Part shown: in pieces, positions 9,940-58,422 of the stretch
How the letters are laid out: every line of letters begins with the position of its first letter
Position numbering within the stretch: position 1 is the stretch's first letter
Source: Naegleria gruberi
Lineage: Eukaryota
Direction: 5' to 3' (one strand)
Length of the DNA stretch: 64,000 nt
NCBI GenBank assembly: GCA_000004985.1
Contig: GG738866.1
The notes under the pieces: generated by a model
Databases searched by the model: none
What the model was told of the DNA's origin: nothing
Seen by the model: only the letters and a program-made list of their open reading frames with translations
Position numbers and translations under genes: made by a program

Positions 9940-12324
9940 TTATTTCTTCAGTTTATTTCTGAGAATCTTTGGAACATAGACATTTTCGGAAGCCTTTTGG
10001 GTTTCAATCTTTGTTTCTGGTTTAGATGACTTTTTCAGACGAGACATAAGGTCAGCCTTTGTGAGTGATTTAACTTTAACTGGTTTAGCATCAACTACTG
10101 GCTTGACAATGACTGGTTCTTCAACCATTTCTTCACCATCTTCTTCGGCTTCTTCATCATCTTCATCTTCGTCACCAATGATAATATCTTCACCATCAAT
10201 TTCTTCGTCATCATCTTCACCTTCTTCGGCTTCTTCGTCATCATCCATGATTTCATCATCGTTGAATTGAGCATAGACTTCATCCCAATCGACTGGTTCG
10301 TCGTCATCATCTTCATCTGCAACGACAACATCCTTCTTTGCGTCCTTCAAAAGCTTCTTCTTTTTAGCATTTTGAGATTCAATCTTTTTCATTTGTTCCT
10401 TGGTTGGCTTGGCGAGTTCCTTACTAAGTTCGTCAACCTTGCCATCTGGAATAATACCAACACCCTTCATGTCGTGTTTTGAGTAAACAACAGCCAATTG
10501 ATCATCAGTCTTTAACTTGTAGAACAATTGCTTAATATTGTGATTCAAAAGTGGATTTCTCTTCTTTTGCTCGAATTCACCCTTCAAACTTCTCATTTCA
10601 GTCTTTTCAATATCATCTTCGAAAGGTGGAATGATAAACCATGGAAGTCTACCACGTTGCCAATCGTGAACAATCTTTTTAGCAACAGATTGAACATCTG
10701 GAATACCTCCCTTACCCAATCTACCACTTCTATAAGCAAGTTGAGTGAGGAAATCATGGTGATCCTTCCATGTCAAAATTTGATATGTACGTTGAATATA
10801 TTCTGGTTTCATACGATGGAGAATGACACGAATAACATCTACCAATTCATCAGGAGTAACAGTTTCAACACGAACAACTCCCTTCAATACGTTATCAGCA
10901 ACTCTATTCATATATTGATATTCCTCATCAGCAACAGATGTAGTATATGTATTCTTCAATTTATATTGTTCACCACCATCAGTAGTGTGAACAACACCAG
11001 GACAATCGATCAAGAAAATACGTCTCATCAAAGCAACATATTGCCAAACCTTAGTTTCACCAGGAATTGGAGCAGCTTTACAGACCTTCTTCTTTCTCAA
11101 AGTATTAATAACACTTGATTTACCAACGTTTGGATAACCCAAAAGACCAACACTGATACTTGGCTTATCACGATGGACTTGAGCATATTGTCTAAGTAAT
11201 TGAATCAATGCACCCTTACCGAATGGATTTTCAACACTGGCGTGGAATGCAAGACATGGATATTCTTGTGAGAGAATTTTAACCCATCTGACTGTCACCC
11301 AAGTTGGAACCAAGTCACACTTATTCAAAATGAAAACAACATGTTTGTGTGGCTTTTCCTTCTTAAGATATTGTTCAATATGATAACAACGAGTACCAAT
11401 TGGATCTCTGGCATCAAGAACAATAAGTAAAACGTCACTAGAGTCAACAACCTTGTACAATTCACCCCAAATACGTTTAGAAGTACCACGTTGAGTACAT
11501 GGATCATATAAATGGGATCTAACAAATCCACTTGAAGCCATAACTGAAGAAACATCTTGAGCATTAGTACCTTCCTTATGGAGATAATAATATTCATTAG
11601 GAACGTATAATTGTTTCTTATCCTTAACTGGTTCATAATCTTGTTGTTTCTTACCAGCTTGACCAAGTAATTCCAACAAATCGTTAGATAATAAATTTGG
11701 CCTCTTACGTTGAGCCTTGTTTCCGAAAGTTTCTTGGAAGTTAATTTGTCTCTTAATTTGGAAAGTACTAGATTGATGCAAAGCATGAATATTATCACTT
11801 GTTGGTACTAAAGTTTCACCTCCCACAGAAGGAATTGTTGGTTTTGTTGGTGCTAATATCGAAGAAGAAGTAGCAGTTGGTGTAGTGTTAGCTTGAAGGA
11901 GAGAAACTGGGACTTTTGATCTTTTTAAGAGAATTGTATATGGATCGTGAATTTTCTTTTCCAATGCAGTTCTGAACTTGGACATTTCTTGTTGACCAAT
12001 CACACGAGTATTGTTAAACCATTTACGATCTGGAGCAATTCTAGCCATTTCACCCTTGGCAATTTGTTGTGATTTTGGAGTAACATAACCTTTGATAATT
12101 TCACCATCTTCATTTCTCTTAACTTTAGATGTATACATCAACAAACGTTTAATGGTACCACGAGAACGCAATTGTGTTGGACCTTTACCAATCTTGGTCT
12201 TATCAACTTTACGATTTTGATTTAAAGAGTGACTCTTTTCTTTACGTTTCTGTTTAGTAGTGTTCTTAGAGAGAACATTTGGGACTTTAACTCTCTTGCC
12301 CGATGATGATGATGCTGGAGGCAT
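9940..12324 (-). CDS. nog2: Nucleolar GTP-binding protein 2 (NOG2/GNL2), circularly permuted GTPase.
   Basis: Matches: NGN-like N-domain ([18 protein letters not shown]); [25 protein letters not shown]; KCDLVP (G4); [14 protein letters not shown] (G1); DCPGVV (G3), in permuted order. Acidic DE-rich C-terminal tail. Single exon, TAA stop. Confidence 0.85.
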
Positions 12325-48184: not shown

Positions 48185-49046
48185 TCTTTTTTTAAACCTT
48201 TCTGGTCAACTTGAGAAGTGCCATAAAATTTAAGGCAAATTAAATTTGTTCTAATTTGTAATTTTGTGTTAATGTGCGAACTATTCTATTCGATTATTCT
48301 TTCGAATGGATCAAGAATGGTAATATTATTGAATGCCTCCAGTTATGGTCATTGAATTGATTGAAAGTGCCATGGAAAGTTTTGAATGTGTGCAGATCCA
48401 AAGTCCATTGTCGGGAAGGACGGCATGAGGAGAAAAGCACAGAATCATAATAACATGCATATGGATCTTCCTGTGTGTGTAATAATATTCAAATTAATTC
48501 GTTGGACAAGTAGCATAAATTATGCTTGTTGCCCAGTTGACATATTTGGCTTTTTTTAAAACCCAATGTGTCGCCAAATTTTCTAATATGGTCATATTTT
48601 GTGCTGGTCAAAGTCCAGAATAAGTGAGATCTGTATTGTGAGAAACAAACTGTGATCTTTTCTGGTATGTTAAATTAACAATGGCGAGATGCAAGGAATG
48701 CAATTAATACGAATCCTTTAGGATTCGATTGGATTCAATGAGAAACAGTTTTGAGAATTATTTGTAAATGAGTATACACTAACATGAAAGAATCAACCAA
48801 GAACTCATGATAAGTTCTTTAGATTAGAAAAGAATTGATAGCTACTTTGATTAGAATCAATTCAAGATGCAATGTTTATTACATTTACTTTGGAACTCTT
48901 GAAAGGTCTGCTGGACCGGCATAACTAAACGAGAGCAATGATAATAATTTGATAATATTAAAAAGGGCAGTGTCGATTAAATAAAATAATTTGAACAGAA
49001 AAATAATTCATGTTATCAGAATTATTGAGTAAAATTTAAAAAACTT

Positions 49047-50298
49047 ACACATCATCTTCAATGCCACATTCGTTGTGTCCTCTCAAAATTTTGAAAGTTC
49101 CTGTTTAATAATTAAAATAAAAATAAATTTTAAAAATTATTTAAAATTAAAAAAATTAAAAATATTAAATTAAAAATGTCATGAAGAAATACTTACCGTC
49201 AATACCCCAATCAGTTGACCAAGAGTTGGCAACCAACCAGTAATCAACACCACCTTCAACACCCCAACCAATAATCTTGATGGCGTGACCACCCAAGAAA
49301 GAACCAGTCTTGTGTGAGTAAACTCCAGACTTGTAGTTCATGAAATCTCTGTAATTATAATTATTTTAGACTCGAGTCAATTAGTCTTTAAAACTTACTG
49401 GTAAACACTGAAACCACCTTGGACTGGACCGTTAGTGTAAATTTCTTGTTGGATATCAGCAACTCTTTCCCAGAACATCCATGGAGAAATGTGAGAGAAT
49501 GACTTGGCATAGTAAAGTTGGGAGGAAATTGGAATGTTAGTACCATTACAGCTAAAAATCATGTTAAAAAGAGCTAATTAAAATGAAATGACTTACTTTG
49601 ATGGACAAGCTGGGACGTTACCACCACCAGAGACGTATGGCATACATGAGTCTGGGACGATACCCTTGTTCTTCATCCACCACCAAGCATTATCCAAATT
49701 ACCACCATCACATCCCATATCATTGTAGTCGCAAGAGACCATATCTTGAGGGGACAAAATGACGTCAACCTTTCCGTTAGAAGCAATACAGAATCTATCA
49801 GAGAGAGATTCAGAAGCAGAGACTATTGATCATGATATTTCACAAAATTTCACAAAATTACAACTTACAAGCCCAACAAGAACCACATTGTTCTTGATTT
49901 CTAATTGGGTGAATACACTTGCCCCATTGTTGTCTAGAATCAAAGTTAGTTGGGAGACCAAGAGTCTTGAATTGCTTGGAAGCTTCTTCAACACCAACAG
50001 ACTTGACAGCGGAAGCCTTAGCTTCATTGTAGTGCTTGATAGTAGTCATTTGTTCTTCAGAGTATCTAACTTGACCTTCCTTCTTGGCAAAACCCAACAA
50101 TCTCTTCATTTCAGCAACGGTCTTACCAGCCAAATTTCTATTGACACCAGCCTTCCAAGTAGAAGATGGATCACTATTAATTTCGTTAATCATCTTAAAG
50201 TTAATAGCCATGGTTTCATGGTCTTCAGCAGTGATTGGAGCGCAATAAACTGCGGCAGCCAAACACAACAAGAGTGTAGCGATAAACAAGCTCTTCAT
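49047..50298 (-). CDS. Cathepsin B-like cysteine protease, six exons (first 49869..50298, last 49047..49100), with introns of 46-95 nt.
   Basis: Signal peptide plus propeptide. Spliced product ...[21 protein letters not shown]...[17 protein letters not shown] (occluding-loop region) ...[84 protein letters not shown], collinear with human cathepsin B. All introns are GTAAGT..AG with consistent phases. Confidence 0.9.
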
Positions 50299-50708
50299 TT
50301 TTTTTTTAAATTTTATTATTTTTTGAGCGCGGGATGAGGTTTTTATTAGGAACTGGAGGTTGAAAACTCCAACTTGACTCCGTCCTTCAACTAGTAGTTC
50401 ATTTCATTGATTAGTGGAGATGAAAATCAATCCTAGGAGTTGTTATTTCACATAATTCTACCCTTAGTTAAACTCAATTTTGACCCTATCCATATCTTTC
50501 ACTCTTCAGGAATAACATTATTTGTGGGAGTTTAAGTTGTGAGTTCATTGAGGGAGCTCTTCTTTACACAAAGAAATATTCGAAACATTTGTTTCCTCAA
50601 TTTATCAGGAATTCCACATACTGACTTGTATCTTCAAGGCGTTTCCACAGTTCGTTTCTTTTTGGCAATGAGTACATTAACCTTCAATTAACAGACAACT
50701 CAGGAGTA

Positions 50709-52807
50709 CTACCGGTATTTCTTTTTAAAAACAAATTTAATGTACTTGTGGGTAGAAAAGATAGTGGAAAGAGTACCATTTTCGACACATCGTTCTGTCA
50801 GTTCAAAGATATTACCACTTGATGGATGTATGTATTGATATGAATGAGGTTTTTTCATTACCTCAATTGGAATAAGTGCTGTCAATATCTTCATCAATGC
50901 TGAATAGTCGATCAGAGTACTTCTGTCAACTATTTCCAAATAGCATTTATCATGGAAGCATAATTCAATATCCACTCTATCTAAAACAGTTATCTCATCC
51001 ATGCAGGAGTCGATGGCACATCTGTCTTGCTCTCATTCCAAGATCTATTGCAAGTCCCTATTTTTGCAATAAAGGAATTTTGAATATTGCTCCTCACCTC
51101 TTCATTTGGACATCTAAGAAAGAAAGGATTTTTCAAGGTATATGTTATTTGAGAGCAACTTTCCCTCACATTACTGGTTTGAGAAGTTTTAGATCCAGTT
51201 AGATACCCAGAATAAAACATTAATTTCCAGAATAGTTCGTGTTTTCTCTTAATTTGTCCACAAGTAAATATTGTAACATCCACATCCAAACTCATGTCAA
51301 TTTCTATTTCTCCTCCGTTCTTCAAGGTTTCTAAATCATCAATCATTTCAATATCATCTGAAGATTCAATGTTTAATATCTGAACTAGCTCTCCAGTTGT
51401 ACCTGTTGAAATCCAATAATCAGAAATCTTTCCTAAAGCAAAATATGAGCATAATGACCACATGTTGAACACTAACTTGGAATTGCCATCAACATTGTAA
51501 CCGTTGTACCAATGATTGAGCTCTTTGAACTCAGTATCCAATCCTGGATAATCTTTACCTCTGATTCTTTTTAATGCTGAAGACAGTTCTGGTTGGGTAA
51601 TTCCAAACTCTGTCGTAAAAATCTCATCACTTTGTGTTGAATAATAACACAAGTTATTGAGTCCCGAAAGGTATCCCATATCTGTAAGTAGTACAATACC
51701 CATGAACAAGCTAAACTCAATAGACTCATTCCTTTTTAAAAAGGAAAATATATTTGCAAATATTTCAAAAATCTCTTTTCTAAAGCTCATATAAACACTT
51801 CCCATAAGAGGTGAGTCATATTCATCTATCAGTAAAACGACCTTAGATTGGTGATGCTTGTGTAGACATTCTATCAGGTGTTCCAAAGCGAATGTATCTG
51901 TTTGTTTTTGATATTCTAATAATTTCTGCTTGTCAGAATCTGTTAAGGTTTCACTATTCAATAAATAGCCAAACTCGTTGACTAGTTTAGTCAACAAATG
52001 GAGAATATTGCATCTAGTTTCTTCCAAGGAGTTAGATACTACACCATTAAATGAAATAAGGACTACAGGATATTTGTTCATGTGCAGTTTGCACAAGTCT
52101 TCCCTTTGCATAATCTTTAAATCTTTAAACAATTTCTCTGAAGTGGCAGTTTGGTTTATATCAAGGAAATATGATAACATGTTCAAATTGAATGATTTTC
52201 CAAACCTTCTTGGCCTCAATATTAGTGAGTGTTGTGACTTTCTCTTTTCTAATACATGCTCAATGAACAGTGACTTATCAAAAAGAAGCATTTCTTTGTC
52301 ACATGTATTGGAGAATGTAATTCCAGGATAACAACTAACAAGGGCAGAAAATGCAACAATTGAAATCTCATCACCCCATAGTAGTTCTTGTATAAGCAAT
52401 TCTTGCAATGAATCATCTCCCCTAATCGGCTTATTTTCATAACAATAACTCCATTGTTGGGATCTCTTATTCTGTTGGTATGCTACTTGTTCAAACAATG
52501 CAAAAGCAGCACCGAGTGGTCTTTTGGAACTCATCTTTGTAGTTATGGAAGTAGTTTTGTTGTTTGTTATTATTTTCACAATCACCACATCATCACAAGC
52601 AGTGGCGCTAACAATTATTTGTGTTTCACCAAAACTGTGCCAAGTGTCTTCATAATTCAACAAATGGCCACAAGTAAATTCGAAACCTGAGTATTCATCT
52701 AGAAGAGATCCGATCAAGCTATCTTCAGACATAGCCTTAACTGTGCTTTCTTGTTTGTCGAACAAAATGTGTACACGAACAGAGAGAGACATTTTTTTGT
52801 TGTACAA
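50709..52807 (-). CDS. Predicted AAA-ATPase_like (PF09820-type) plus PD-(D/E)XK nuclease-like C-terminus (DUF1703 family, common in Bacteroidetes). There is a frame break at 50990..51002.
   Basis: LILRPRRFGKSFNLNMLSYFL, YNGYNV...LVFNMWSLCSYFALGKISDYWISTGTTGEL (family motif yNPwSvlnyl...yWvnTG) and SGYLTGS...LRCPNEEVR (start of the PDDEXK module). The C-terminal remainder (ORF 50709..51002, LDRVDIELCF...) is in another frame. The only GT..AG candidate, a 68-nt GTGAGG..GAGAG intron, would delete the conserved EVR. Confidence 0.55.
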
Positions 52808-53053: not shown

Positions 53054-54013
53054 TTATTCCTCATTTTCTTCTTCCTCTTCATTCTCGTCATTCTCTTCAT
53101 CACTGTCATTTGTTATTTTCACTTGTTTCAATAATGCAACAATATTATCGAATTTCTTACTCTCTGCAATTGTTATTGGTTTTTCATTATTGACTTTAGT
53201 ATAACCATATCCATCCCAATAACCTGAGTAGGTGTGCTTTCCCTTATTTACCTTAATTTTTGAATTTTCCAATAATAATTTGACAATTTCCTCATGTCCA
53301 TTCATACAAGCTCCATATAGTGGTGTAATATATCCCAAATTAATTTCAATTTCTTGTTTTGATAGCAATAATTTCACAATATCAACAAATCCATTCAAAC
53401 ATGCAATAAAGAGTGGTGTTACTCCACTGAAACAACTCTCAAACTCTGCATGATCTTCGCCAACCGATTCTTCAAGTCTTCCCTTTGAAATATCAAACTT
53501 TTTACTCTCTGAAAGCAATAGTTCAACAATTTCCAAATCACCCTTTTCACATGCTACAAACAATGGTGTAGTTGTTCCCAAATCAATTTTCACACCCTTT
53601 GAAAGAAGCAATTTCACCATCTCTCCATTGCCCAATTCACATGCCATACACAATGTTGTTCTCTTATCAATCAATCTATTAGTGGAGTAATCTATTTCAT
53701 ACTCTTCTTCATCATCAATACTCTTTTCATTCTCATCTGCAACAAACAACCAATCGAGAAGATATAAATCAGCAGCATCAACCAAAACATTCATCATTTC
53801 AGGATTCTTTTCTGATGCAACAATCTTGCCAAACTTGTCTTGGTTTTCAATGATCCATTCTTTGAATACTCCCTTATCTGCTTTCAACAAATCGGAAGCA
53901 TTGCTATGTGCAATCAAGTAGTCAAAATCTACATCTTCTTCTTGATTGGATGGTTTAGTTTTCTTCCTTGGTGGTGAAAGATTTTCGTCCTTGCTGTGAT
54001 CAGATGAAGACAT
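53054..54013 (-). CDS. Ankyrin-repeat protein with an acidic C-terminal tail.
   Basis: At least four ankyrin repeats (TTLCMACELGNGEMVKLLLSKG, TTPLFVACEKGDLEIVELLLS, VTPLFIACLNGFVDIVKLLLSK, ITPLYGACMNGHEEIVKLLLEN). C-terminus DSDEENDENEEEEENEE. Confidence 0.7.
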   Translation of the reverse strand: MSSSDHSKDENLSPPRKKTKPSNQEEDVDFDYLIAHSNASDLLKADKGVFKEWIIENQDKFGKIVASEKNPEMMNVLVDAADLYLLDWLFVADENEKSIDDEEEYEIDYSTNRLIDKRTTLCMACELGNGEMVKLLLSKGVKIDLGTTTPLFVACEKGDLEIVELLLSESKKFDISKGRLEESVGEDHAEFESCFSGVTPLFIACLNGFVDIVKLLLSKQEIEINLGYITPLYGACMNGHEEIVKLLLENSKIKVNKGKHTYSGYWDGYGYTKVNNEKPITIAESKKFDNIVALLKQVKITNDSDEENDENEEEEENEE

Positions 54014-56345: not shown

Positions 56346-58422
56346 ATGGTTAATAAGACCAAACATTTATCGAATAGTATTCTTCCCAATAATAATAACA
56401 ACAATAACCATGGAAATAATCATGGAAGTGGTCAAGAAGAACCACCATCACTACATCCCATCTCATGTAATCGGTGCCGATCTAGACACACCAAATGTGA
56501 TAAACTACTTCCAACATGTTCATATTGCATGGAGAATAACCTTCCATGCATTTACGAAACTCCCAAAAAGTTGAGGAAAAACTACATGGCAGAATTTGTT
56601 GATTTGAATCAGAATGTAGTTTCTTCTGCATTGACTCACTTGCAAAATCCCCAATCGAAATATAAGGTCTACAAATTCAGTGTAGGAGAAAAGAAAAAGA
56701 AGAAGAGGAGAGAAAGACCAAGTAGAAATGAACATCTTCAACAACATGTTGTTGCATCTTCAAATTCCACTTTGGAAAATATGGATAGTAATAGTCCTGC
56801 TAGGATCAAATGCACAATCTATTAATTTGCATGCCACTCAACAAGAATTTGAACGATCACAACAACAACAACATAAAACATATAGAGCATTCATGTACAA
56901 ATTAATGACAAATCACTTGGATGAGAAGCTATTGTTAAAAACATTCCGAACCGATGCTTACACCTACTACACACAGTATATTGCGTAAGTTTACTGTTTA
57001 TACCCATCTATTTACCTTAATAGTTTTGGAACGACATTGCTGAGTGAAAAAACAATTGAGAGAGTTTATGAATTTGTGGATGAGGACCAAATGACTCAAA
57101 TATATCCTGAGGATGTTCTCTCACTCATCTATGCAATACATGCAGTGAATTTGTTTGTTTTTGAACAACGAGATGTATCTTTTAAGAGTTTTGAGAAGTC
57201 ACTTCGATTATTGCAGTACGATCCATCAAATATTGAGAATTTAATTTTATGTTTGGATGTTGCTGCAAATGGATCAGAAGGTTCTAGCGTTTTATGTTTA
57301 TCGAGCGATGGAAGCAGTTCAGATGTCTACTTTTCTAGTAATAGAGATCACAATTCATTATTTTTAATTAGTGCAAGACTGATGCTTTCACAATATTGTT
57401 TATGTTTGGGATTTATTCCTACAGCAAGCCATTTTCTTAATGAGGCAGATATCATGCTGAAGAATAGATTTCCTACTTACAGAAATCAGAGCTACTTGCC
57501 ATCAAGCATTCTAGGAGCAATGGTGGATCCTATTGCCTCTCTTTATCAAGGACTAACACCAGACGAAATCTTTGTTTTGAAATACAGATTAGTATGTGGT
57601 GTTAAATTAGACGATATTAGATTTTTCCAAGAGAGATTGCCTCAATATATTGGATATTCAACACCTCAAACTTTTGAACCCTATACGAGAACGTCATCTG
57701 TGCTATTAGATGACCCTAAATATTTATTTTCTTCCTATGTTAACAAGTATATATTTGGTACAGCACTGTTTATTATTGGAATGGGAAAGAAGGATTTGCT
57801 GAACTTACTTCTTTCACCAAATATTGTACTGAAAGATCAGCCAAATATACCATTCATGATCATTGGAGTATTGGATTTTAATGGAAAATTATTGAAAAAA
57901 CTCACAATTGATAGATTCAAAATGACTGAATCAGAGGTAAGCTCTCTTACCATCCCAACTGAGATTACCCATAGATATGCAGACTTGGTTTTCACATTCC
58001 AGAAAATATTCACGACAAGCTATAGCTTCCTGGTATTGCATGAAGTTGTTATCAATTATTCTAGTCCTCTCACCTTGATGAACATTGGCAGAAATGATAT
58101 TGATATTGAAAATGTTAGAAAATGTTTGAATTTTAGAAATGAATTTGCTGATGAGTTGAGTGATCTGTATGCTGTTTTACCTGATTACACCATTCATTTC
58201 ATAAGTTTAGTAGTAATTACAGTATTTCAAGTTGCAAAAATTCACTATGACAAGATATTAGATAGTGGAATGAACTTTGAACGAAAATTATTAACAAGAT
58301 TGAAAAATGATTTTAGAATGTTGCATATATTAAGAAAGAAATTCCCACAATTATTTGAACATGACCATCTCATTACTTTCTACAATGCAATTGAGGATAA
58401 AATAAACCAAATATCTAATTAG
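56346..58422 (+). CDS. Zn(2)-Cys(6) binuclear-cluster (GAL4-type) transcription factor with a fungal-TF-like middle region. Probably three exons (introns ~56784..56841 and 56978..57016).
   Basis: CNRCRSRHTKCDKLLPTCSYCMENNLPC = C-x2-C-x6-C-x6-C-x2-C-x6-C, followed by the basic region KKKKRRERPSR. The second splice (GTAAGT..TAATAG, phase 2) is clean (..TQYIA|FGTTLLSEKTIERV..). The first splice is inferred from a frame change. Confidence 0.6.

What the first reader, a model, noticed from the sequence alone, without database searches (positions are those of the whole stretch)
50709..52807. Bacterial-type AAA-ATPase_like / PD-(D/E)XK (DUF1703) gene in a eukaryotic chromosome, with a frame break in the nuclease module
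The protein carries the diagnostic motifs of the AAA-ATPase_like family (RPRRFGKS; YN.W..........YWISTG) and the start of the PDDEXK_9 module (SGYLT...CPNEEVR). This family is mainly found in Bacteroidetes/Firmicutes and only sporadically in protists. It suggests horizontal acquisition or a domesticated selfish element. The C-terminal nuclease part continues in a different frame (50709..51002), so the gene is either pseudogenised, mis-assembled, or uses an unusual 68-nt intron that removes conserved residues.
Basis: partly seen in the sequence, partly recalled or inferred. Interest (0 to 1): 0.55.

Follow-up and report, generated by a model that had tools for sequence, protein, structure and literature searches.

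The report
Bacterial-type ATPase gene in Naegleria
An amoeba (Naegleria gruberi) gene descends from a bacterial ATPase-plus-nuclease family: it kept the ATPase, has no detectable nuclease, shares this remodelled form with its relative Willaertia, and its last ~100 codons sit in a shifted reading frame. It is a tidy but fairly ordinary old gene transfer.

Summary
The window is Naegleria gruberi. The ORF is the annotated protein NAEGRDRAFT_48898 (XP_002677624.1, 600 aa).

**Confirmed**
- A strong PF09820 AAA-ATPase_like match (E=2e-31), with Walker A RPRRFGKS and Walker B DEYD.
- A 107-codon open frame (50709..51032) in the -1 frame that overlaps the stop of the main ORF.

**Not confirmed**
- No nuclease is detectable. 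PF08011 does not match.
- 'SGYLT...CPNEEVR' lies about 50 residues upstream of where PF08011 starts in bacterial relatives.
- The downstream ORF scores no better than shuffled sequence against the bacterial nuclease profile.
- It found no DUF1703 protein among 1.84 billion representatives.

**What it is**
- The downstream ORF and a ~160-aa N-terminal extension are weakly but colinearly similar to Willaertia magna KAL9654521.1.
- That protein is the reciprocal best hit and forms a 100/100 bootstrap clade with this gene.
- All other relatives are prokaryotic, at 27-35% identity across many phyla.
- I read this as an old horizontal transfer that predates the Naegleria/Willaertia split, followed by loss of the nuclease.

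**The frame break**
- An intron is unlikely: candidate donors are GTGAGG and acceptors GAG, whereas local introns use GTAAGT...YAG.
- No slippery site is present.
- A real frameshift and a consensus error cannot be told apart here.

Interest is modest.

The parts
50990..52792 (-). Annotated single-exon CDS NAEGRDRAFT_48898 (XP_002677624.1, D2VEH6), 600 aa including its TAA stop
   Evidence: 100% identity to P0001 over residues 1-600; accessions
52319..52792 (-). N-terminal extension (residues 1-158), absent from all prokaryotic relatives and shared weakly with Willaertia
   Evidence: Prokaryotic matches start at about residue 142-189. Smith-Waterman score 48 against Willaertia residues 1-130, reached by 16 of 5000 shuffles. 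No Pfam hit. AlphaFold2 pLDDT below 50.
51683..52318 (-). AAA-ATPase_like domain (PF09820), AAA+ module
52193..52216 (-). Deviant Walker A motif RPRRFGKS
   Evidence: Invariant in 53 prokaryotic representatives. Family motif described in PMC1913061.
51815..51835 (-). Walker B motif LLIDEYD
51095..51682 (-). Conserved middle region (residues 371-566) with the motifs SGLNN, WYNGY, FNMWS, YWISTG, SGYLTG and PNEEV. It is not covered by any Pfam model.
   Evidence: Alignments; conserved columns; AlphaFold2 pLDDT mostly 50-85
50993..51032 (-). Frame-break zone, the only stretch where both frames are open. A -1 (or +2) change of frame here would join the body to the tail.
   Evidence: No run of three identical bases, so no X XXY YYZ slippery heptamer and no homopolymer (read from the sequence).
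50709..51032 (-). Tail ORF, 107 codons plus stop (first ATG at 51002). It is lineage-specific, homologous to the in-frame C-terminus of the Willaertia protein, and not a detectable PD-(D/E)XK domain.
   Evidence: Smith-Waterman score 50 against the Willaertia tail, reached by 17 of 5000 shuffles, and BLASTP E=0.006 at the colinear position. Negative nuclease tests.
51030..51097 (-).
   Evidence: Restores the frame. Donor and acceptor do not fit the local GTAAGT...YAG introns.

Best explanation
The locus is a Heterolobosea-specific derivative of the prokaryotic DUF1703 family, whose members pair an AAA-ATPase_like domain with a PDDEXK_9 nuclease.

**History (inferred).** One ancestral gene entered the lineage by horizontal transfer before Naegleria and Willaertia diverged. 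Its composition then drifted fully to that of the host. It kept the AAA+ nucleotide-switch module and the helical middle region. It lost the C-terminal nuclease as a recognisable, catalytically competent domain. It gained an N-terminal extension of about 160 aa and a lineage-specific tail of about 110-130 aa.

**State in the N. gruberi reference (shown and inferred).** The tail is uncoupled from the body by a -1 change of frame inside 50993..51032. The break is not an intron and not a programmed frameshift. Most likely it is a recent one-base indel. As assembled, the locus then encodes a 600-aa tail-less ATPase, or it is a gene at the very start of decay.

**Mechanism (inferred from the fold class only).** The protein would act as an ATP-bound/ADP-bound oligomerising switch of the Arch_ATPase, ORC or STAND kind. 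It would work through partners or through its new termini rather than by cutting nucleic acid itself.
For: **Identity and family**
- PF09820 matches at E=2e-31.
- Walker A RPRRFGKS and Walker B DEYD are intact. 50 of the 64 alignable columns that are at least 85% conserved in prokaryotes are retained.

**Bacterial origin**
- 5719 hits have E<=0.001. Apart from the query's own record and Willaertia, the top 120 are PF09820-bearing proteins, nearly all with PF08011, and the named ones are bacterial.
- 80 GTDB loci from many phyla match at 27-35% identity. Nearly all cover only about residues 142-600, that is the AAA+ module and the middle region, not the N-terminal extension.

**Single origin with Willaertia**
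- The two are reciprocal best hits: 225 against 186 bits one way, 231 against 131 bits the other.
- A neighbour-joining tree gives the pair 100/100 bootstrap support, with distance 0.92 between them against at least 1.33 to any prokaryote.
- Both share the N-terminal extension and the tail (p about 0.003 each, colinear).
- Both share substitutions at positions conserved in prokaryotes: K249N, R368L, E372M/T and P444M/V.

**Genuine chromosomal gene**
- It lies on a 469-kb scaffold next to intron-bearing neighbours.
- GC is 0.346 and GC3 is 0.318, within the neighbours' range of 0.258-0.371.

**Nuclease not detectable**
-.

**Not an intron or a programmed frameshift**
-.

**Tail is, or recently was, coding**
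- A 107-codon open frame of this kind occurred 1 time in 9367 in shuffled sequence.
Against: - No transcript or read-level data could be consulted. A consensus error in the assembly would make the gene intact at about 695 aa.
- The Ng-Willaertia similarity of the tail and of the N-terminal extension is weak (23-25% identity, p about 0.003 each).
- The tree is unrooted neighbour-joining on 55 taxa. It shows Ng+Wm monophyly but does not formally show nesting inside bacteria, and no donor lineage emerges.
- AlphaFold2 gives no usable model for the extension or the tail (pLDDT below 50). A structurally degenerate PD-(D/E)XK remnant is therefore not excluded.
- The Willaertia gene also carries a frame disruption, at a different site. 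Two independent recent frameshifts are a coincidence this account does not explain.
- Absence from other Naegleria species was judged only from protein databases, not from their genome sequences.
Confidence: 0.6

Rival explanations
1. The frame break is an error in the reference consensus, or one allele of a heterozygous indel. The real gene would be an intact, uninterrupted ORF of about 695 aa, with body and tail joined as in the ancestral Naegleria/Willaertia gene.
For: - The tail frame is still open for 107 codons and still resembles the Willaertia tail. That fits no real disruption, or only a very recent one.
- All family-invariant ATPase residues are intact.
- The only other member also shows a frame problem in an assembly built from Nanopore reads and polished with Illumina (PMC11702301, if GCA_041937235.1 is that paper's assembly, which was not verified). 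This hints that assembly artefacts do occur at such loci.
Against: - The break zone has no homopolymer longer than 2 nt, which is the usual site of indel errors.
- The N. gruberi reference is, from my own knowledge and not checked here, a Sanger assembly with a low indel error rate.
- No read data could be inspected.
Confidence: 0.25
2. A short spliceosomal intron joins the two frames, for example the first reader's 68-nt GTGAGG...GAG at 51097..51030, or the 104-nt candidate at 51097..50994.
For: Several GT...AG combinations restore an open frame without stops. Short introns of 39-60 nt are typical in this window.
Against: - No GTAAGT or GTATGT donor occurs between 51260 and 50993. All five cathepsin B introns next door use GTAAGT, and GTAAGT is the hexamer with the highest exon-intron-exon hallmark rate, 8 of 32 sites.
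- The acceptors of the 68-nt and 104-nt candidates are GAG, with a purine at -3.
- The 68-nt candidate removes V566 and the helix that aligns with the bacterial proteins.
- The official gene model is a single exon.
Confidence: 0.05
3. The tail is a highly degenerate remnant of the PD-(D/E)XK domain, so the first reader's 'nuclease module in another frame' would be right in origin though not in activity.
For: - It occupies the same position as the nuclease in bacterial relatives.
- By eye, 'DRVDIELCF..CYLEIVD + helix' resembles 'GRYDxxLIP..hhhExK + helix', and the low-confidence AlphaFold2 model has a beta-beta-alpha...beta-beta-alpha pattern.
- MAFFT places 'IKFVFKKK' under the bacterial 'IGIAFKGK'.
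Against: - HMM scores are about 0 bits and no better than 1000 shuffles.
- hhalign gives 0.2%.
- A full HMMER search of 1.84 billion proteins found no DUF1703 protein.
- In the alignment the tails have gaps at the bacterial SNxESGxGRxD block and no E or K at the ExK columns.
- By eye, the motif III lysine is missing (EIV in Ng, EKF in Wm). The region that would carry motif I is much shorter: about 45 residues in Ng and about 28 in Wm between PNxEV and the putative motif II, against about 85 in bacteria (sequences).
- Several mutually exclusive weak mappings are possible.
Confidence: 0.15
4. Naegleria and Willaertia acquired their copies independently from bacteria, or the sequence is bacterial contamination.
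For: Ng-Wm identity (33-37%) is hardly higher than Ng-bacteria identity (27-35%). There is no synteny between the two loci.
Against: - The Ng+Wm clade has 100/100 bootstrap support.
- Both share the non-bacterial N-terminal extension and the tail.
- Both share derived substitutions.
- The gene is embedded in large eukaryotic scaffolds between eukaryotic genes: 469 kb in Ng and 410 kb in Wm.
- Its composition is that of the host.
Confidence: 0.03

Closest known systems
Prokaryotic DUF1703 proteins (PF09820 AAA-ATPase_like + PF08011 PDDEXK_9), for example the Fusobacterium 'AAA family ATPase' P0035 and the Gammaproteobacteria MAG protein MCK4608302.1. The family is described in Knizewski et al. 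2007 (PMC1913061).
   Same: The AAA+ module has the same deviant Walker A RPRRFGK[ST] and Walker B DEYD. The helical middle region is the same up to IPNxE[VI]. Identity is 27-35% over Ng residues about 160-570.
   Different: There is no detectable PD-(D/E)XK domain or catalytic motifs. There is an extra N-terminal extension of about 160 aa and an unrelated tail. Several prokaryote-conserved positions are substituted: K249N, R368L, E372M and P444M. The host is a eukaryote.
Willaertia magna KAL9654521.1 (ABK040_006586)
   Same: It is the reciprocal best hit and forms a 100/100 clade with this gene. The architecture is the same: extension, AAA+ module, middle region and non-nuclease tail.
   Different: Identity is only 33-37%. 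The tail is in frame there. Its own disruption lies elsewhere: the annotated 52-nt 'intron' removes the conserved GYDINGQRKILFNVWSLS block and bridges a frameshift. There is no synteny.
Archaeal Arch_ATPase-type AAA+ proteins SSO1545 (PDB 2fna) and PABY2304 (2qen), and the wider ORC/Cdc6, STAND (Avs, NLR), BrxC and TnsC group
   Different: Sequence identity is 7-16%. There was no sequence-level PDB match. The Walker A motif is different. No sensor or effector domains are shared.
DUF1703 expansions in intracellular and amoeba-associated bacteria such as Cardinium, Simkania and Rickettsia (PMC6387759)
   Same: They belong to the same family. They show that the family circulates by horizontal transfer among bacteria that live inside eukaryotic cells, which gives a plausible route into amoebae. 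A Babeliaceae MAG and a Legionellales MAG are among the hits.
   Different: Those proteins keep the nuclease and are bacterial. No specific affinity of the Naegleria gene to them was shown.

Membership tests
DUF1703 family (PF09820 + PF08011) | AAA-ATPase_like domain above Pfam's gathering score | tested here: met
   109.8 bits against a cut-off of 26.1, E=2e-31
DUF1703 family (PF09820 + PF08011) | Deviant Walker A RPRRFGK[ST] and Walker B DEYD (PMC1913061) | tested here: met
   RPRRFGKS at residues 193-200 and DEYD at residues 323-326
DUF1703 family (PF09820 + PF08011) | Conserved helical middle region between the AAA+ module and the nuclease | tested here: met
   Alignable through IPNxE[VI]. 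Invariant G365, S376, G377, N379, N380, Y429, W522, G529, Y530, L531, N563 and E565.
DUF1703 family (PF09820 + PF08011) | C-terminal PD-(D/E)XK domain (PF08011) with motifs I-IV (E; D; ExK; Q) | tested here: not met
   No PF08011 hit at E<=0.01 in either ORF. Custom HMMs give about 0 bits, equal to shuffles. hhalign gives 0.2%. The tails have gaps at the bacterial SNxESGxGRxD block and no E or K at the ExK columns.
PD-(D/E)XK fold (tail ORF taken alone) | [quoted passage not shown] | tested here: inconclusive
   AlphaFold2 models of the tail have pLDDT 46.9 alone and below 50 in context, which is too low to compare folds.
Arch_ATPase / ORC / STAND-like AAA+ ATPases | AAA+ alpha/beta core plus helical lid, similar to solved members | tested here: met
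Arch_ATPase / ORC / STAND-like AAA+ ATPases | ATP hydrolysis and nucleotide-dependent oligomerisation | not testable with these tools
   This needs biochemistry. R368 and E372, conserved in prokaryotes, are replaced in both Ng and Wm.
Horizontally acquired gene in a eukaryote | Closest relatives outside the immediate clade are prokaryotic, and the family is overwhelmingly prokaryotic | tested here: met
   Formal nesting in a rooted tree was not tested.
Horizontally acquired gene in a eukaryote | Physically integrated in the host chromosome, not contamination | tested here: met
   469-kb scaffold. Intron-bearing cathepsin B and an ankyrin gene lie within 250-410 nt. GC and GC3 match the host.
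Spliceosomal intron (as the explanation of the frame break) | GT...AG boundaries that restore the frame | tested here: met
   Several candidates do so, including the 68-nt one at 51097..51030.
Spliceosomal intron (as the explanation of the frame break) | Local splice-site consensus (GTAAGT or GTATGT donor, YAG acceptor) | tested here: not met
   Donors are GTGAGG, GTAATG, GTATCT and similar. The acceptors of the 68-nt and 104-nt candidates are GAG.
Spliceosomal intron (as the explanation of the frame break) | Spliced transcripts | not testable with these tools
   No RNA-seq access. An exact-protein look-up of the tail ORF found nothing.
Programmed -1 ribosomal frameshift | Slippery heptamer X XXY YYZ in the overlap zone | tested here: not met
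   The zone GAGCAAGACAGATGTGCCATCGACTCCTGCATGGATGAGATAA has no run of three identical bases.

The most novel reading that the evidence does not exclude
Heterolobosean amoebae domesticated a bacterial DUF1703 ATPase-nuclease and swapped its effector. The AAA+ switch would now be coupled to a new N-terminal domain and a new tail. That tail may contain a small Ig-like beta piece, given its only database hit, to Big_7 repeats. The protein would then act as a eukaryotic STAND-like sensor, for example against the bacteria or giant viruses that infect these amoebae. On this reading the frame disruptions seen in both long-cultured axenic strains would reflect relaxed selection on such a defence gene.
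Probability: 0.12. Interest if true: 0.5.

Novelty: new member of a known kind. Interest (0 to 1): 0.3.

Why it matters
The finding adds one cleanly documented case of a prokaryotic conflict-type ATPase family becoming fixed in a free-living protist lineage and then remodelled. The nuclease was lost, new termini were gained, and the ATP-binding motifs were conserved over the Naegleria-Willaertia divergence.

It also corrects two gene models:
- The N. gruberi model probably lacks about 100 C-terminal codons.
- The W. magna model contains a spurious 52-nt intron.

It does not open a major question. The function of DUF1703 proteins is unknown even in bacteria, and the family's presence in Naegleria is already recorded by the PF09820 assignment this protein carries in the database searched.

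Tried and rejected
- **Search with the termini alone.** I searched with an alignment of only the N-terminal extension and the tail. It returned nothing, not even P0001 itself. This is a failed positive control, so the result is uninformative rather than negative.
- **Exact-sequence look-up of the tail ORF in public assemblies.** Nothing was on record.
- **Metagenome scan with Ng+Wm-specific peptide patterns.** It found one bacterial-like locus (27% identity) and no further heterolobosean copy.
- **PADLOC, NCBIfam and PDB sequence searches.** No hits. There is no link to a named defence system at sequence level.
- **AlphaFold2 of the merged protein and of the tail alone.** The extension and the tail came out below pLDDT 50, so no fold inference is possible for them.
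- **AFDB50 fold library.** It was unavailable.
- **Synteny with the Willaertia locus and a second copy in the window.** Neither was found.
- **Flanking terminal or direct repeats that would indicate a mobile element.** None were found.
- **Global hexamer enrichment of GTAAGT.** This was uninformative. I replaced it with an exon-intron-exon hallmark survey.
- **First neighbour-joining script.** It timed out and was rerun with a lighter distance calculation.
- **Codon-usage sub-analysis.** The row 'AAA_core' was out of frame by one base and should be ignored. The whole-ORF values are valid.
Full report
**Identity of the window and the gene.** The 605-aa ORF at 50990..52807 (-) is 100% identical, from its first ATG at 52792, to the 600-aa 'predicted protein' of Naegleria gruberi. 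Its accessions are XP_002677624.1, EFC44880.1, D2VEH6 and NAEGRDRAFT_48898, and it lies on a 469-kb scaffold. The window has 30-38% GC throughout.

The flanking genes are ordinary eukaryotic genes:
- an ankyrin-repeat protein at 53054..54013 (-);
- a cathepsin B-like protease starting at 50298 (-), interrupted by five short introns that all begin with GTAAGT;
- further out, an inosine-uridine nucleoside hydrolase, a DUF4116 repeat protein, a CDP-alcohol phosphatidyltransferase and a Zn(2)Cys(6) protein.

The gene has GC 0.346 and GC3 0.318, inside the neighbours' GC3 range of 0.258-0.371. Its synonymous-codon fit to the neighbours is at the low end of their range. It is a resident chromosomal gene, not contamination.

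**The observation.** PF09820 (AAA-ATPase_like) matches at E=2e-31. The quoted motifs are present, with one small correction: the gene reads FNMW where the family has YNPW.

A second open frame on the same strand runs from 51032 to a stop at 50709, in the -1 frame relative to the main ORF. It overlaps the main ORF's TAA at 50990. An open frame this long is rare by chance here, 1 in 9367 in the shuffled window.

The claim that SGYLT...CPNEEVR begins the PDDEXK_9 module is wrong. In four bacterial relatives PF08011 starts at residue 437-455, about 50 residues after the IPNxEV motif. Those motifs belong to the conserved middle region, which no Pfam model covers.

**Is the downstream ORF the nuclease?** Every test was negative.
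- PF08011 matches neither ORF.
- An HMM of 13 bacterial C-terminal regions gives about 0 bits on all three minus-strand frames of 50500..51400 and on the Willaertia C-terminus.
- A 53-sequence HMM scores the two tails no better than 1000 shuffles of each.
- hhalign of the Ng+Wm tail profile against the bacterial profile gives a probability of 0.2%.
- A full HMMER scan of the tail against 1.84 billion representative proteins found no DUF1703 protein.
- That scan's only hit (E=1.7e-4) is the start of the Big_7 Ig-like repeats of a 5135-aa Bdellovibrionales protein.
- In the multiple alignment the two eukaryotic proteins have gaps at the bacterial SNxESGxGRxD block and lack the ExK residues.
- AlphaFold2 gives no confident fold for the tail, so a structurally degenerate remnant cannot be excluded. 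Nothing positive supports one.

**What the downstream ORF is.** It aligns colinearly with the in-frame C-terminus of the one eukaryotic relative, Willaertia magna KAL9654521.1. BLASTP gives E=0.006, and a Smith-Waterman score of 50 was reached by 17 of 5000 shuffles.

The N-terminal extension of about 160 aa, which no prokaryotic relative has, is also weakly similar between the two (16 of 5000 shuffles).

Ng and Wm are linked in three further ways:
- They are reciprocal best hits by wide margins.
- They form a clade in 100 of 100 neighbour-joining bootstraps on 380 columns of the shared ATPase and middle region.
- They share substitutions at positions that at least 91% of prokaryotic representatives conserve: K249N, R368L, E372M/T and P444M/V.

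They therefore descend from one ancestral heterolobosean gene that already had the extension and the non-nuclease tail. The two loci are not syntenic.

**Origin.** Apart from the query's own record and Willaertia, every hit in the top 120 of both searches is a PF09820-bearing protein, nearly all with PF08011, and the ones that carry a name are bacterial.

The 80 best GTDB loci come from many groups: Gammaproteobacteria and Alphaproteobacteria MAGs, Lachnospiraceae, Fusobacteriia, Bacteroidota, Methanosarcinales, Polyangiaceae and Babeliaceae. All match at 27-35% identity, and nearly all cover only about residues 142-600, that is the AAA+ module and the middle region rather than the N-terminal extension.

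No donor lineage stands out. The literature shows the family moving horizontally among intracellular and amoeba-associated bacteria (PMC6387759). An old prokaryote-to-Heterolobosea transfer is the simplest reading. Rooted nesting was not formally tested.

No other Naegleria protein appeared in the searches. That suggests loss or non-annotation elsewhere in the genus, but genome sequences were not searched.

**Functional state.**
- Walker A (RPRRFGKS), Walker B (DEYD) and 50 of the 64 alignable highly conserved prokaryotic columns are retained. This indicates long-term purifying selection on the ATPase and middle region.
- By inference, the protein is a nucleotide-dependent switch or oligomeriser that no longer carries its own nuclease.

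**The frame break.** The change of frame must lie within 50993..51032.
- No GTAAGT or GTATGT donor exists upstream of it.
- The frame-restoring candidates use GTGAGG or worse donors, and the 68-nt and 104-nt ones use GAG acceptors.
- Real introns in this window use GTAAGT (8 of 32 sites show the exon-intron-exon hallmark) or GTATGT, and YAG.
- The 68-nt candidate would delete V566 and the helix that aligns with the bacterial proteins.
- There is no slippery heptamer and no homopolymer in the zone.

An intron or a programmed frameshift is therefore unlikely. A recent one-base indel, or a consensus or allelic artefact, remains possible, and the tools here cannot separate the two.

The Willaertia model also hides a frame problem. 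Its annotated 52-nt intron (GTTATG...CTAAG) removes the conserved GYDINGQRKILFNVWSLS block and bridges a one-base shift near TTTTTCATTTAAAC. A W. magna assembly described in PMC11702301 was built from Nanopore reads, polished with Illumina and annotated with BRAKER2. I assume, but did not verify, that it is the assembly used here.

**Verdict.** This is an already-annotated, horizontally derived, nuclease-less member of the DUF1703 and AAA-ATPase_like family. It is shared with Willaertia, and its lineage-specific tail is out of frame in the reference. Interest is modest.

Noticed in passing
L001 about 11180-11340 (Willaertia magna JBEGDK010000040.1; gene at 10001-11930): The annotated 52-nt intron of KAL9654521.1 (GTTATG...CTAAG) deletes the family-conserved GYDINGQRKILFNVWSLS block. 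Unspliced, frame 0 reads through that block and then hits stops, and the rest of the protein continues in frame +1. The model therefore masks a one-base frameshift near TTTTTCATTTAAAC.
   Followed up: partly
window 50757..50876 (tail ORF residues 53-92): The only hit of the tail among 1.84 billion proteins is the start of about 103-aa Big_7 Ig-like tandem repeats in a 5135-aa Bdellovibrionales protein, MCB0420814.1. The shared pattern is Y-I-H..N..F..[ST]..C.ENG, which is also the part conserved with the Willaertia tail. This could be chance boosted by the repeats.
   Followed up: partly
window 48900..50298 (-): A cathepsin B-like cysteine protease gene (Propeptide_C1 plus Peptidase_C1) with five short introns, all starting GTAAGT and ending YAG. 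I used it as the local splice-site reference.
   Followed up: partly
window 56346..56825 (+): An ORF with a 'fungal' Zn(2)-Cys(6) binuclear cluster domain (PF00172, E=3e-10) in a heterolobosean genome. A GTAAGT intron candidate at 56985..57023 may join it to the ORF at 57037..58422.
   Followed up: no
window 45219..46220 (+): An ORF made of seven DUF4116 repeats (PF13475, E=5e-76).
   Followed up: no
window 51686..51700 (residues 365-369) and 51461..51463 (residue 444): Ng and Wm share replacements of residues that are 91-96% conserved in prokaryotic DUF1703 proteins: R368L and E372M/T in the TGIxRVAKE block, K249N and P444M/V. These may reflect altered ATPase regulation after the nuclease was lost.
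   Followed up: no
tool behaviour: The word-indexed protein search with a two-sequence alignment returned no hit at E<=10, not even the query's own database entry. Negative results from that call should not be trusted.
   Followed up: no
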